Assembly: GCA_963693365.1 (NCBI GenBank) | Contig: CAVNZM010000003.1 | Location: 3,791,106 to 3,855,105, forward strand | Direction of reading: 5' to 3' | Origin: Amoebidium appalachense | Lineage: Eukaryota > Protista > Ichthyosporea | Length of the DNA: 64,000 nt | In this document: piece by piece, positions 34,087 to 42,923 of the stretch | Numbering within the stretch: the first letter of the stretch is position 1 | Layout: every line of letters starts with the position of its first letter | Notes under the pieces: model-generated | Database searches by the model: none | What the model was told of the DNA's origin: nothing | Seen by the model: the letters and a program-made list of their open reading frames with translations, nothing else | Position numbers and translations under genes: made by a program

Positions 34087-37000
34087 CTACCAATAGTCAT
34101 CATCGTCATATCCCGAATCCGAATAATACGAGCCCTGGCCCGCACGGACATTCACGTATCTTCCGTCGATACTTCTCAGCCTTTCTCGAAGGCTCTCGTT
34201 CCTGATGCATTCATGAAGCACTGGTATGTGGCCTACCCCTGCCTGCTTGAACGCAAACAGACGCCTGTGTGGGATACGGTTGTTTGCAATTGTTGGTAAA
34301 TGCTAGGGGTTTTCGTTCAATTTATATCATTGATTGTCGCTTTCCTTTTAAACCTTCCATTTGTTTTCTTTGGTCCCCCCCCCCCCCCCCCCCCCCTCTC
34401 CCCCCCCCCCCCCCCCCCCCCCCCCAAAAAAAAAGAAAGAAAAAACCCTGTTTCATATCCACCTATGTCGGAATTTCGGGGCATGACGTCAACTTGCCGT
34501 CCATACTAAATAATACTGACGTCGTAAATCATGATTGGGTTTGGCTAAATTTGGGTTAAACCCCCCCCCCCCCCAAAAAAAAAAAAAAAATGCAGCGCTT
34601 GCCCGGGGGAGAAATGTCGACATAAAAGTAATAGCTGGAAGTATGTGAATGTGCATTGAGGGGAAAGAAGATGGTGGTGGTGGGGTCGTGGTGGTGGTGG
34701 TGGTGGTCGTCGGGAAAAGGGGGGGAGGGGGGAGGAGGGGAGAGGGGGGGGGGAAGGAGGCCGGGGAAGTGGGGGCAAGGACTCGGGGTCCGAAGAGAGG
34801 GCGGAAGGGGGAGAACGAGAAAGGGGGGGAGGGGGGAGGCAATGGGGGCCTTAGTGATGAAATAGGATAACCTTGGAGAGTCAGGGAGGGAAAGCAAGGG
34901 GAGGAGGGGAGAAGGGTGGGGGGGGGGGACCATATGCACGTGTGTGCTTGAGTGGGAACGAAAAGAGTGGGTGTGCGCTTGAACTTATGAGTCAGTGTGT
35001 GTGTATGCGTGTGTGTGTGTGTGTGTGTGTGTGTACGTTCGTGTGATGGCAAGGTGGTGGTGGTGGTGGTTGTAGGGTAATGGTGTTGGTGGTTGCGGTG
35101 GTGGTGGTGTTTGGGGGGGAAAGGGACGGGGGGGGGAGAGAGGGGGAAGGAAGCACACGCTCCCCCTTGTGCGCATATGTTGGTGGTGGTGGCACGGTGT
35201 GTGTGTGTGTGTGTGGGGGGGGGGGGGGTTACCTGTTGTCCAAAGAGAACAACCTCCCCCCGACCTCCAACACCCTTATCTTTGGAATTTGCAACAAGAA
35301 CCCCCTACTCGAATTTCGGCAGAGACTATCCACCAATTGGTAAACCGACGCCCCGTCCTGAAAATACGCCGAAATGGACGTGTTGGAATAGAAAACATCG
35401 GAAGGCGAAATCCAATCGCACGCGCTGTCCTCAAAATCTTGGTTGTCCGTATTTATAAACGTGCGTCCGTCAATAACAGCGATATATTCATCTGAATCGT
35501 GCGACAACGAAACAAATTCGACGAAGTCCGCCTCGTGGAGAATCGTGGAGAGAGGCTCATCCACGCTCCAGTAATATCTCCCGCTAGATAACATCAGAAA
35601 ATACGTTCCGTTTGGGCCTAGGGAAAAGCTCACGGGGAAGTCGGCGGTTCCTTGCAAAACGTTTGTCAACCCTCTAGGGAGAGCGCCGGACCAAGACGAT
35701 CCCAGGTCGGACGCGATTACGTACGTGCCGTATTCTCCGAGAGCGATTTCCTTAATGTTTGAGTGGTCGTTGTTTGCAATGTCTGACATGTGTGATTGCA
35801 TGCTGAAGTCAAAGGAGCCATCGGCGAATCGGATGAAATAGTTTTCGTTTGGGCCGAGGCATACATGGGTGACACCGGGGAGATGGGCCTGCCTCCCGTT
35901 TAGTTTGTTGTGCAGTCGCTGTTGAAAATTGGGTTTTAAAATAGTGTGTGTGTGTGTGTGTGTGTGTGTGTGTGTGTGTGTGTGTGTGTGTGTGTGCGCA
36001 CACACACACACACACGTGCGTGCGTGCATGTACATGTGTGGGCGCACGTGTACGCGTGTTTGCCGGCAGTATAAAGGTGCATGCACGTGTGTTGGAGGTA
36101 TGGAGTTGAGGTGGATTCAAAAAGAGAAATGAGTGACCTCAAGCAGGACGTAGAGGGTGAGAAGCGGTGAAAAGGTATAGCGGAGAGGAAGTTTGGAGAT
36201 GGAAAGGGAGACCGCCGGGAAGGGGGGGGGAGGAGGGGAGGGTTGAGGAGTTCAAAATGAAGGAGAGGTTACTTCAAAAGGAGGAGGTGGGTGGAGAAAG
36301 GAGGCAGGGGGGAAGGGCAGGGGAAGGGGGGGGGGGGGGGGGGGGAGTCATGGGCCGTTTAATAACACATCAGTTGGAGAAGATGGGGTGGCGAATGGTA
36401 GCAGGGTTTTCCCCAAGAAGCTTGCTGTGCAGTGTAGGCAGCGAAACGGGACCAGCAGATGGACAAAGAACAGAGTAGGTGTGCGTGCGTGTGCGTGTGC
36501 GTGTGTGTGTGTGTGTGTGTGGGGGGGGGGGGGGGGGGGGGGGGGGGGAGGGGATGGGGGTTGCCCATGTTATCTGAACGCGAGCTCCTCCGCAGCTCAT
36601 GTTCCTTTGCCTACCTTTGGTATGTTGCCGCTGTAAGTCCAGCATCCTCCGTCACCCCAGCTTACAACATAAGCCCCGTTGCCTGCTATGGCAGCACACA
36701 CAGGTGTGCGAATCTTGATGTTGGGTGCCATGCTGTTGGCATGTATGCATACGTGCAAAAACCAAGCAACGATTACCGAAGTGGGCCTGCTGGCCTGCTG
36801 CCCTACACAAGTATGTGTTCTTGTAGATGTTTGTGTGCCTGTATGCATGTGTGCTAGTGCACGGAGAGTGTGTGTGTGTGTGTGTGTGTGTGTGTGTGTG
36901 TGTGTGTGTGTGTGTGTGTGTGTGTGTGTGTGTGTGTGTGTGTGTGTGTGTGTGTGTGTGTGTGTGTGTGTGTGTGTGTGTGTGTGTGTGTGTGTGTGTG

Positions 37001-37369
37001 TGTGTGTGTGTGTGTGTGTGTGTGTGTGTGTGTGTGTGTGTGTGTGCTTGCGTGTTGCGCGTGTGTGTGTGTAAAATCCAAAGGATGCAACTTCCAAAGG
37101 TTGTGCTTTTCTTTAAAGAATCGGGCTGGAGCGAGTTAGTAGAGACAGATGGTGTGCCGCTTTTTTCTCGTTTTCTTACTCCGGGTACCTTTCTTTTTTC
37201 TTTTTCCCTTTTTCCCTGTCTTTTTTTCTTTTTTTTTTCTTTTTTTTTTTTCCCGGAAGCTCGATTGCCTCGCCGGCCCCGCAGGCTGCCCAGCGGCCGG
37301 CCGTGCCGTTTTTATACGGGGGTACCTCGGTGTTGTCTGCCTCGCAGGAGGGCTAGTCGAGGATGTCAT
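34087..37369 (-). CDS. Paralog A: five 'LGPxGxY' repeats plus C-terminal ParB/Srx-like (Tox-ParB-type) domain
   Basis: Exons 37369-37326 (in-frame, optional; alternative ATG at 36731), 36732-36615, 35918-35233, 34264-34087. C-terminus ISPSDVFYSNTSISAYFQDG...IPKIRVLEVGGRLFSLDNR|RLFAFKQAGVGHIPV. Colinear with paralog B, sharing two intron positions. Confidence 0.88.
36868..37046. repeat. Long (GT)n microsatellite (~180 bp)
   Basis: Directly visible; in the first intron of paralog A. Confidence 0.95.
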
Positions 37370-40953: not shown

Positions 40954-40979
40954 TAACCGCCACCGCTATTTCCTTCAAG

Positions 40980-42923
40980 ATGCCTCTTGTGTGTGGGACT
41001 ATGAACGGCAGTGGAGGCTACGTGCTAAGTTGGGGTAACAGGGGGCTTTGGGCGTGCGGAGGTTACATACCGCAGGTAGGCACTTCTCAAAACCGCATGC
41101 ATAAACAATGCACAAGGAAAAGTCGGGAGCTCCATGAGTGTGTGTATATGTCCCTGTGCTTTCTATGATGCGTGCGCAGGCGTCTAGTTGTACTCGTGCA
41201 CCTTGTTATTAGTCATTGTAGCGTTTTCCTTTTTCCTTTTCCAGCAGTTGTATTAGCTCACGCTCTCTATGAACAGACTTTGTGTTCTCTTCAAGCCTGC
41301 TTTTGGTTGGCTTTTGAGTTTGAATGTCTGTGTGTTCAAGAAGTCTGTGTGTGGATATGAAACGACTTTCAAGAGTCACTCACAAACCATATTCTACACA
41401 CGGACGATTTTATCCAAACACACACAACTATGGTAGTCCTAACACAAAACATCAACATGCAGGGTTTGCGCAATAAGCTGAAAGGGAGGCAGCGGAACCT
41501 CCCTGGGGTTTCCTTCGTGTGCATCGGCGAAGATGATCAAGATTACTTCGTGTCGTTTGTCGACGGAGCCTACTCGTACTGCCTTCCGCGTCACATTTCC
41601 AATGCCATTCAGAGTCGTGGATTACGTCCTACCCATGTTGCCCTGGGCCCAAATGAGACCTATGTGGTCGTTTCCGAAGATGGTCATGTAGTGTGGGATG
41701 GTGATGTTCCGGAATCCTTGCAGAAGCTGTTAAGAAACACAAGGAATGGAGAAGTCAAGCAGATTTCCTTAGGGCAGGGTGGAACATACTTCGTTAAGTT
41801 TTCCACCGGGGAGTGCTGGTGCCACGTACGCGAGCCTCTCTTGTCCGTCTTGCGCAGCGCTTCGGCAGAAGCAATTAAGATGGTTTCCTTGTCGCCTGAT
41901 TCCGACGAATACATCGTGGTGATTGGTAATAGAACACTCTTCCACACGCACAACAAAGCTTTAGAAGATGCCGCATGCGATTGGATGGACCCTTCTGACA
42001 TCTATTACTCCAACACTTCCATTTCCCCGTACTTTCAAGATCGAGGTTCCGTTTACAAGCTGGCTGATGACTTGAAATACGATAAGGCAAGGAAGCTTGT
42101 GCTGCGTGTCCCCAAGATAAGGGTAGTGAAGGTTAACGGGAGGTTCTTTACTTTGGACAACAGGTGGGTGGCTTCATCTCCTATTGCACGCTTTTCCCCC
42201 TACTTATAAAAAATCCAAAATCCCCCCCCCCTCTCTCTCCCACACACACAAAAACACATAAAAACATATTAGCCTCCCAAGTCTCTTCTCTCACAGTAAA
42301 TAAGCACCCTGAGTGCTTTTCACTTTTCACAACTTGACAACCCGCCTTCTCCCTTCCTCCTTACGTTCCATCCTCTAGCGCGTTTGCCCCCAACCCCCTC
42401 CTCCCTCCCCCCCCCCCCCCCCCCCCATTCAACTCTTCACATCCTCCCCTCCCCTTTACACCTGCCTCCTCTTCTGCCATGTCTCTCTTGGATGCCTCCT
42501 GCCATCTCCTCCCCTTGCACCTCCCAGTATAACCCTCCTCCCAAACAATTGCCCCCCTCCCTCCCCCCCCCCCCCCCCCCCCCCATACACACACGCATTT
42601 CCCCCCCAACCTCCTATGTGCTTTCACTATAAACGTCTAGGCGTGTTCAAATCCCCCCACCCGCCCCACTCCCACCCCACCATCTCCTTCCCCTCCCCCC
42701 TCGCCCTCTGACTCGAGTTTCCCTCTTTCCTCCTTGCAGGCGCCTGTTTGCTTTCCAGCAAGCGGGGCTCGACTTTGTGCCGGTGCTTCAAGTTCTCGCT
42801 ATTGACATCAGCACCAAATTGGCACGCAAATTGGTTAACTTCAAGGGTTCTGGGGTTGCTGTGAGTGGGCCTCGACACGACAGCGAGCTTACGCCTATTG
42901 ATTCTTGGAGTAGTGATGTATGA
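40980..42923 (+). CDS. Paralog B: five 'LGPxGxY' repeats plus C-terminal ParB/Srx-like (Tox-ParB-type) domain
   Basis: Exons 40980-41075, 41463-42163, 42740-42923. MDPSDIYYSNTSISPYFQDRGSVYKLADDL...VPKIRVVKVNGRFFTLDNR|RLFAFQQAGLDFVPV. Introns at IPQ| and DNR|R match paralog A. Confidence 0.9.

What the first reader, a model, noticed from the sequence alone, without database searches (positions are those of the whole stretch)
34087..42923. Head-to-head paralog pair fusing a five-repeat module to a Tox-ParB-like ParB/Srx domain: candidate undescribed eukaryotic sensor-effector system
Seen: two divergently transcribed, diverged paralogs with the same intron positions. Each has five ~40-aa repeats (V..V.LGP.G.Y....DG..W...P..L...L) followed by 'SPSDVFYSNTSIS.YFQD..SVY.L...L...IPKIRV..V.GR.FSLDNRRLFAF.QAG...IPV'. 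Known: this C-terminal pattern matches the ParB/sulfiredoxin fold, particularly the 'FSQ.SIS...SLDNRRL' Tox-ParB type seen at the tips of bacterial polymorphic toxins, where the RR motif binds nucleotide phosphate. Here the usual Q is N in both copies. Inference: a repeat ligand-binding domain coupled to an NTP-dependent or nucleic-acid-targeting effector, duplicated into a head-to-head pair as in paired immune receptors and sitting among housekeeping genes. The key motif is split by an intron (DNR|R), so ORF-level annotation would miss it.
Basis: partly seen in the sequence, partly recalled or inferred. Interest (0 to 1): 0.78.

Follow-up and report, generated by a model that had tools for sequence, protein, structure and literature searches.

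The report
Bacterial toxin domain tamed in eukaryotes
Two back-to-back, spliced genes of a eukaryote each join five short repeats, predicted to form a small propeller, to a domain also found at the tip of bacterial competition toxins; the same fusion occurs in fungi, protists, an alga and a rotifer, and likely acts as a propeller-controlled nucleotide-splitting switch in stress or defence.

Summary
Two divergent paralogs of 326 aa (45% identical) share two introns at the same positions and phases. Public contigs guessed to be RNA join all four introns.

The C-terminal domain is best filed as Tox-ParBL1 (Zhang 2012; N-terminal Ser plus NRR), not classical Tox-ParB. It is 38-48% identical to tips of bacterial RHS, haemagglutinin and HINT toxins, and 60 of 76 such bacterial loci carry a DUF7660 gene directly downstream (likely immunity). 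A homologue's model (pLDDT 94) matches sulfiredoxin (Z 8.7); the five repeats model as propeller-like blades.

The fusion is not peculiar to this locus. It is in 33 of the top 150 hit clusters, from fungi, a choanoflagellate, a rotifer, Rhizaria, dinoflagellates, Acrasis and Chara. Q-to-N is common (15 of 38). A and B are sisters with saturated silent sites, symmetric, with start codons 4.2 kb apart, so an old local duplication is likelier than a sensor/helper pair.

The domain and its presence in eukaryotes are published; I found no description of the propeller fusion. Best guess: a self-contained, propeller-gated NTPase or phosphotransferase effector. Activity is untested.

The parts
36615..36731 (-). 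Gene A coding exon 1 (aa 1-39; repeat 1); start codon inferred
   Evidence: RNA-type contig covers 36615-36719 and joins to exon 2
35233..35918 (-). Gene A coding exon 2 (repeats 2-5, and the ParBL1 domain from about 35426 up to D-N-R)
34087..34264 (-). Gene A coding exon 3 (second Arg of DNRR, rest of the ParBL1 domain to about 34144, acidic tail, stop)
35919..36614 (-). Gene A intron 1, 696 nt, GT..AG, phase 0
34265..35232 (-). Gene A intron 2, 968 nt, GT..AG, phase 2, inside the first Arg codon of DNRR
   Evidence: contiguous record positions 790|791
36732..40979 (.). 4,248 nt between the two start codons: microsatellites, short direct repeats, a TATA-like site with a short ORF; no Rfam match
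40240..40979 (+). Unspliced 740-nt leader of gene B with 10 upstream ATGs
40980..41075 (+). Gene B coding exon 1 (aa 1-32; repeat 1)
41076..41462 (+). Gene B intron 1, 387 nt, GT..AG, phase 0
41463..42163 (+). Gene B coding exon 2 (repeats 2-5, and the ParBL1 domain from about 41973 up to D-N-R)
42164..42739 (+). Gene B intron 2, 576 nt, GT..AG, phase 2, inside the first Arg codon of DNRR
42740..42923 (+). Gene B coding exon 3 (second Arg of DNRR, rest of the ParBL1 domain to about 42863, tail, stop)

Best explanation
The two genes are expressed, spliced sister copies of a widespread, unnamed eukaryotic family that fuses five repeats, predicted to form a propeller, to a Tox-ParBL1 (ParB/sulfiredoxin-fold) domain also found on bacterial toxins, and each copy likely works alone as a propeller-gated nucleotide-splitting effector in stress or defence.

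Shown: the gene structures, the splicing, the repeats, the breadth of the family, the homology to bacterial toxin tips, and the downstream DUF7660 partner in bacteria.

Predicted: the propeller and ParB/Srx folds, from a homologue's model.

Inferred: (1) the D-N-R-R motif binds the phosphates of Mg-NTP, probably ATP, as GxxR does in ParB, sulfiredoxin and ToxB; (2) in bacteria a separate immunity protein restrains the domain, and in eukaryotes the fused propeller takes over that control and reads an input ligand or partner protein; (3) release gives ATP hydrolysis or phosphate transfer that slows or kills the cell or relays a stress signal; (4) the head-to-head layout comes from an old inverted duplication in this lineage and does not mark a division into sensor and helper.
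For: Homology to toxin tips: a profile built only from 22 bacterial tips scores A at 58.7 and B at 65.4 bits, against at most 5.6 in 1,000 shuffles; BLASTP identity is 38-48%. The 22 hits include haemagglutinin, RHS and HINT (PF07591/PF14890) proteins, and in all 22 the motif lies 40-46 residues from the end.

Toxin context in bacteria: the domain ends within 15 aa of the stop in 66 of 76 bacterial loci. The next gene is DUF7660 in 60 of 76, usually overlapping or abutting. No DUF7660-like gene lies in the window (best E 0.51), and the repeat profile hits 0 of 93 fetched loci, so in this sample the propeller replaces the immunity gene.

Active-site residues: the motif's N and last R are invariant in 38 of 38 fusions. 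The ParB core is more conserved between A and B (49/80) than the repeats (81/193).

Fold: the model of homologue P0143 has pLDDT 93.6 and pTM 0.87 over both modules. Residues 203-296 match sulfiredoxin 6ky4 (Z 8.7, rmsd 3.5, 87 of 89 aligned), Atu1540 (8.1), KorB (7.0) and SerK (6.7).

Precedent: ToxB, a toxin of this fold, is an ATPase whose toxicity needs the motif Arg and is blocked by occlusion of the site (10.64898/2026.05.05.722872).

Modularity: the repeat module also occurs with alpha-kinase, RING, CCCH and WD40 domains, and weakly with PARP.

Duplication: A and B are sisters in both trees, and 46 of 70 four-fold sites differ.
Against: No activity has been measured for any ParBL1 domain in the papers I found. 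ToxB has GNHR and was found with PF02195, which does not hit this family, so the ATP preference is borrowed from a different branch of the fold. Orthologues in Neocallimastix, Anaeromyces and Piromyces are 200-203/207 identical in the propeller and 100-103/105 in the ParB domain; that is strong constraint, more like a core enzyme than a defence gene. Zhang 2012 suggests ParBL1 was taken into core eukaryotic systems. Several homologues have long acidic linkers between the modules, which argues against one fixed lid geometry. The model coordinates could not be inspected, so packing of the propeller over the active site was not seen. The good model is of a homologue about 25% identical to A and B; B's own model, made without an alignment, is poor (pLDDT 51).
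Confidence: 0.45

Rival explanations
1. A tamed cellular enzyme. The ParBL1 domain would act like sulfiredoxin or SerK, using ATP to phosphorylate one protein or small molecule that the propeller holds, in routine metabolism, repair or signalling. It would not be toxic.
For: 95-98% identity across three genera of anaerobic fungi in both modules. Spread over five eukaryotic supergroups. Only two copies in this 64-kb window, amid ordinary genes. The best structural matches of the domain are sulfiredoxin and SerK-type enzymes. Zhang 2012 proposes uptake into core systems.
Against: The domain stays 38-48% identical to bacterial toxin tips that need a downstream partner gene. The sulfiredoxin catalytic Cys is absent: D, N, A or G and then N precede RR in 38 of 38. 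Named hits are scattered across lineages rather than universal, though absence was not tested.
Confidence: 0.3
2. A paired receptor. A and B would be co-regulated from the shared interval and form a heterodimer in which one senses and the other executes.
For: Divergent orientation; both copies kept since an old duplication; both spliced in the same sample; the repeats diverge faster than the ParB core; canonical ParB domains assemble on nucleotide binding (introduction of 10.64898/2026.05.05.722872).
Against: The architectures are symmetric, with intact DNRR in both and no added decoy domain. The start codons are 4,248 nt apart, with no similarity between the flanks. A and B are sisters, so this pair is lineage-specific while the family is broad.
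Confidence: 0.12
3. A nuclease. The ParBL1 domain would cut DNA or RNA, as Zhang 2012 suggested for ParB-type toxin tips, with the propeller choosing the substrate.
For: Zhang 2012 argues that the phosphotransfer chemistry of the fold could hydrolyse phosphodiesters and that most polymorphic-toxin tips are nucleases.
Against: The same section calls the original ParB nuclease claim erroneous. The one characterised toxin of the fold, ToxB, lacks DNA binding and is an ATPase. No acidic metal-binding residue is invariant in the domain.
Confidence: 0.1

Closest known systems
Tox-ParBL1 (Zhang et al. 2012, PMC3482391, section 25 and Table 2)
   Same: Predicted ParB fold, conserved N-terminal Ser/Thr, [NT][RT][RT] motif; found on RHS, filamentous-haemagglutinin and HINT toxins; already reported in eukaryotes including choanoflagellates, fungi, plants and metazoans.
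   Different: The passages read give no propeller or repeat fusion, no gene pair and no activity. They name Imm-SUKH and Imm44 as immunity, whereas the bacterial loci fetched here carry DUF7660 (60 of 76). The paper's alignments and architecture files could not be read (the supplement is only an index page), and figure 8C is not visible.
ToxB of CdiA, and classical Tox-ParB (bioRxiv 10.64898/2026.05.05.722872; Zhang 2012)
   Same: ParB-fold tip of contact-dependent toxins without an HTH; a phosphate-binding motif ending in an essential Arg; a small downstream immunity gene.
   Different: The motif is GNHR or DGHHR, not DNRR. ToxB was found with PF02195, which does not match here. It is bacterial and secreted, with no propeller.
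Sulfiredoxin, SerK/SbnI, ParB/KorB CTPases (ParB/Srx superfamily)
   Same: Same fold by structure search: Z 8.7 to sulfiredoxin, 7.0 to KorB, 6.7 to SerK.
   Different: No catalytic Cys, no HTH or dimerisation domain, 7-15% identity. The PF02195-based survey (PMC12704722) reports sulfiredoxin as the main eukaryotic member and has no mention of propellers.
RCC1-like, BLIP-II and tectonin propellers; symmetric WD40 (2ymu, WRAP-T)
   Same: Tandem blades of about 40 aa; profile match to 2ymu at E 1e-16; Foldseek and VIA hits.
   Different: Five units of three strands plus a helix. TM-scores are under 0.4 and rmsd 4-5, so no single known family fits, and no Pfam model matches.
Head-to-head sensor/helper NLR pairs of plants (recalled, no call)
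   Same: Divergent orientation; a repeat module coupled to a nucleotide-binding module.
   Different: No STAND/NB-ARC ATPase, no LRR, no integrated decoy, no asymmetry between the partners.

Membership tests
Tox-ParBL1 | ParB-related fold | tested here: met
   Homologue model residues 203-296 match sulfiredoxin (Z 8.7, rmsd 3.5, 87 aligned), Atu1540, KorB and SerK; viral ParB/Srx hits at E 3e-4 and 1.5e-3. Tested on P0143, not on A or B themselves.
Tox-ParBL1 | [NT][RT][RT] motif in place of DGHHR | tested here: met
   N-R-R in spliced A and B; N and last R in 38 of 38 fusions
Tox-ParBL1 | Conserved N-terminal Ser/Thr | tested here: met
   Y-S-N-T-S-I in A and B; Ser/Thr in 34 of 38 at the first site and 34 of 38 at the second. 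Which of the two the paper means is not stated in the text read.
Tox-ParBL1 | Homologues at the C-terminal tip of FilH, RHS and HINT polymorphic toxins with a downstream immunity gene | tested here: met
   (DUF7660 next in 60 of 76 loci)
Tox-ParBL1 | Direct similarity to the type protein NGK_2271 | not tested
   The sequence was not among fetched records; the accession occurs only in the 2012 paper
Tox-ParBL1 | Immunity by Imm-SUKH or Imm44 | tested here: inconclusive
   No Pfam hit other than DUF7660 (and two stray hits) among 76 downstream ORFs; 16 had no hit. Whether DUF7660 corresponds to one of the paper's Imm families was not tested.
Classical Tox-ParB / ToxB | DGHHR or GNHR motif and a match to PF02195 | tested here: not met
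   The motif is DNRR; no PF02195 hit for A, B, the homologues or P0167
Sulfiredoxin | Catalytic Cys in the GCHR motif (motif recalled) | tested here: not met
   No Cys at the motif in A, B or 38 fusions
ParB/Srx superfamily | Mg-NTP binding and hydrolysis or phosphotransfer | not testable with these tools
   Needs biochemistry
RCC1-like or WD40 propeller families | Match to the curated family profile and a seven-blade fold | tested here: inconclusive
   Only sub-threshold WD40 hits; five units; TM under 0.4 to RCC1-like structures; Z 6.5-8.9 at rmsd 4-5
Paired sensor/helper immune receptors | Divergent linkage | tested here: met
   start codons 4,248 nt apart
Paired sensor/helper immune receptors | Asymmetry of the partners (decoy domain or degenerate site in one) | tested here: not met
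   Same length, same modules, intact motif in both
Paired sensor/helper immune receptors | Physical interaction, joint requirement, and pairing conserved in relatives | not testable with these tools
   The complex tool's queue was full; no genome is held for this window; no eukaryotic locus with the fusion was retrieved

The most novel reading that the evidence does not exclude
An ancient, so far unnamed cell-autonomous defence switch of eukaryotes. A bacterial contact-toxin warhead (ParBL1) lost its DUF7660 immunity partner and gained a new five-blade propeller that serves as both lid and sensor, and that is also swapped onto kinase, RING and PARP-like effectors. In this genome the switch was duplicated into a cooperating head-to-head pair.
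Probability: 0.15. Interest if true: 0.85.

Novelty: new variant of a known kind. Interest (0 to 1): 0.52.

Why it matters
A recent survey of the ParB-NTPase fold names sulfiredoxin as its main eukaryotic member (PMC12704722), and the Pfam model that survey used does not match this family. Here is a second branch, spread over five eukaryotic supergroups, still close in sequence to bacterial toxin tips and joined to a repeat module that has no Pfam model. It gives a small, soluble-looking protein on which to learn what the never-assayed ParBL1 domain does, and how a toxin domain is domesticated once its immunity gene is gone. As a by-product, DUF7660 gains a likely role as the ParBL1 immunity protein. 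The head-to-head pair itself adds little.

Tried and rejected
Family libraries: Pfam, NCBIfam and PADLOC give no model for either module. ESM Atlas gave no usable hit for B exon 2 or P0158; a blank there shows nothing. The word-indexed search with B exon 2 found nothing, whereas the exhaustive search with A exon 2 found 242 clusters.

Structure: folding B exon 2 without an alignment gave pLDDT 51; its fold search covers only residues 32-124 and shows propeller blades at Z up to 6.6. The sequence profile found no ParB relative in the PDB. No complex was predicted because that tool's queue was full. An A/B job would in any case have used chains lacking blade 1 and the end of the ParB domain.

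Distribution: scans with the fusion alignment A3 found no confirmed relative in prokaryote genomes or viral contigs (narrow patterns, so not proof of absence). The metagenome scan gave 17 loci with the ParB domain only, so pairing in other eukaryotes could not be examined.

Selection: dN/dS between A and B was dropped because silent sites are saturated (46 of 70).

Expression: B was laid only in X1 and A only in X2, but the tool warns that such blanks prove nothing, so I draw no conclusion on co-expression. No listed holder is on record as RNA.

Intergenic region: no Rfam match; two TG..CA pairs with short flanking duplications fall in AC-rich sequence and were taken as chance.

Earlier scan findings: none.

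Trees are quick searches (SH-aLRT only, midpoint root). I dropped 14 near-duplicate rows and 5 repeat-less proteins from the full-length tree. The domain tree has 110 columns, and no one-clade test was run, so single origin and donor are not claimed.

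
Full report
1. Observation. The window is an intron-rich, microsatellite-rich eukaryotic sequence; no genome is held for it. Two genes point away from each other: A on the minus strand (36731-36615, 35918-35233, 34264-34087) and B on the plus strand (40980-41075, 41463-42163, 42740-42923). 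Each encodes 326 aa, with 142 of 313 aligned residues identical; the exon-2 products alone give BLASTP E 1e-73. The introns are GT..AG and sit at aligned positions, in phases 0 and 2; the second interrupts the codon of the first Arg of DNRR. Contigs of runs X1 and X2 (one sample, guessed to be RNA) skip all four introns exactly. A repeat profile made from 106 units of 23 homologues finds five units in each protein, 118 and 109 bits against at most 7.3 in 600 shuffles; three of the ten units are individually weak. No third copy lies in the window. The neighbours are homoserine dehydrogenase and a cation-efflux transporter.

2. The family. An exhaustive search with A exon 2 gave 242 clusters at E up to 1e-3. 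Of the 150 listed, 33 carry both the repeats and the C-terminal domain; a profile search added more. Named members come from Acrasis kona, Amphidinium, Durusdinium, Symbiodinium, Borealophlyctis, Spizellomyces (degenerate motif), Neocallimastix, Anaeromyces, Piromyces, Adineta steineri, Diaphanoeca, Bolivina, Paulinella and Chara braunii (annotated without the motif). That covers Opisthokonta, Discoba, Alveolata, Rhizaria and Archaeplastida; I looked up names for 30 clusters only. The other 117 listed clusters have the repeats without this domain. Of 116 of them scanned, six carry an above-threshold alpha-kinase, RING, CCCH or WD40 domain, and four give weak PARP hits. In a 45-row tree, A and B are sisters with SH-aLRT 100, and 46 of 70 four-fold sites differ: an old duplication inside this lineage.

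3. The C-terminal domain. The fusion profile hits a bacterial filamentous haemagglutinin at E 2.5e-22. Searching with its tip gave 22 proteins, among them haemagglutinin, RHS and HINT types, all ending 40-46 residues after DNRR. A profile from these alone scores A and B at 58.7 and 65.4 bits (shuffles at most 5.6), with 38-48% pairwise identity. In 76 bacterial loci (two pairs come from the same genome) the domain is C-terminal in 66, and the next gene is DUF7660 in 60. That is the toxin-immunity layout. A search for DUF7660 found no paper. The repeats are absent from all 93 fetched loci, and no DUF7660 gene lies in the window. These features fit Tox-ParBL1 as defined by Zhang et al. 2012: a conserved Ser, an [NT][RT][RT] motif, FilH/RHS/HINT carriers, and eukaryotic members. 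They do not fit classical Tox-ParB with DGHHR (PMC3482391: passages and section 25 read; the supplement is an index only, so the paper's eukaryotic architectures remain unseen and could include this fusion). In the domain tree, 28 of 29 eukaryotic fusion domains group apart from the RHS/CdiA tips (SH-aLRT 95), together with six repeat-less domains, two of them from bacterial-looking proteins. The alignment has few columns and no root.

4. Structure. AlphaFold2 on homologue P0143 with a 25-row alignment gave pLDDT 93.6 and pTM 0.87: five units of three strands plus a helix, followed by an alpha/beta domain. Residues 203-296 match sulfiredoxin (Z 8.7, rmsd 3.5, 87 of 89 aligned), Atu1540, KorB, SerK and PadC. 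Residues 1-204 match propellers of the RCC1, tectonin and five-bladed hydrolase types at Z 6.5-8.9 and rmsd 4-5. Foldseek gives RCC1-like hits with TM under 0.4, and the sequence profile matches symmetric WD40 propellers. So the repeats are propeller-like but of no catalogued family. The high pTM hints at a defined arrangement of the two modules; I could not inspect it.

5. Mechanism. By motif register (inference), D-N-R-R corresponds to ParB G-E-R-R and ToxB G-N-H-R. In ToxB these residues hold the phosphates of ATP, the last Arg is needed for hydrolysis and toxicity, and the immunity protein occludes the site (bioRxiv 10.64898/2026.05.05.722872: abstract, introduction, first results part and sections 7 and 9 read; its supplements were not seen). 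N and the last R are invariant in 38 of 38 fusions, so the site is probably live in both paralogs. I favour (0.45) a self-contained switch in which the propeller replaces the lost immunity protein and gates NTP hydrolysis or phosphate transfer in stress or defence. The main rival (0.3) is a tamed, sulfiredoxin-like enzyme, supported by 95-98% identity among anaerobic fungi. A sensor/helper pair gets 0.12: the copies are symmetric, 4.2 kb apart at their start codons, share no flanking similarity, and are a lineage-specific duplication. No interaction test was possible. A nuclease gets 0.1.

6. Novelty. The domain, its toxin origin and its presence in eukaryotes are published. Searches for Tox-ParB with eukaryotes, ParBL1 (three listings, two not opened and off-topic by their titles), ParB-CTPase fold with toxin and eukaryote, ParB with beta-propeller, sulfiredoxin and polymorphic toxin, and ParB-like domain with propeller, protists and conflict (listings only) found no description of the propeller fusion. 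The library lacks most subscription papers. The 2025 fold survey (PMC12704722, passages read) used PF02195 and has no occurrence of 'propeller' or 'WD40'. Verdict: a real feature and a new variant of a known kind. The undescribed part is the pan-eukaryotic fusion family and the DUF7660 link, not the head-to-head pair. Interest 0.52.

Noticed in passing
L018-L093, ORF directly downstream of the ParBL1 tip: DUF7660 (PF24693) follows the tip in 60 of 76 bacterial loci, mostly overlapping or abutting its stop: a likely immunity protein. No paper mentions the DUF.
   Followed up: yes
P0035, P0082, P0089, P0117, P0139, P0144, P0005, P0059, P0099, P0105: The repeat module also occurs without ParB, joined to alpha-kinase, RING, CCCH, WD40 and (weak hits) PARP domains: a mobile propeller-like family with no Pfam model.
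   Followed up: partly
L004, L005, L007, L011, L013, L014: Other ParBL1 fusions that look eukaryotic: a Cys-rich N-terminal domain (L004, L005, L007) or long low-complexity arms (L011, L013, L014).
   Followed up: no
window 40240-40979: Gene B has an unspliced leader of at least 740 nt with 10 upstream ATGs and small duplications (28 nt tandem at 40287-40342; 31-38 nt at about 40742 and 40917), which may dampen translation.
   Followed up: partly
window 38573-38760: A TATA-like site followed by an ATG and a 28-codon ORF on the plus strand, in an AT-rich stretch midway between the two genes: a possible small gene or element remnant.
   Followed up: no
window 37350-37665: Three copies of a 49-nt unit spaced 140 and 127 nt apart, upstream of gene A.
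   Followed up: no
window 47027-47235 and 47455-47661: An exon of the cation-efflux gene is duplicated in tandem (80% identical); the second copy appears to be out of frame.
   Followed up: no
window 1554-2572, 14231-14330, 25571-25707, 29696-29855, 33151-33417: A dispersed non-coding repeat family in both orientations, 74-98% identical, like a small mobile element.
   Followed up: no
window 55013-55303 and 21334-21494: Self-complementary (palindromic) stretches of about 290 and 160 nt, MITE-like.
   Followed up: no
gene A C-terminus (window 34087-34143); P0001, P0002, P0004, P0055, P0158, P0160: An acidic tail in A and long Asp/Glu-rich linkers between the modules in several homologues, which could shield the basic RR site (speculation).
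   Followed up: no
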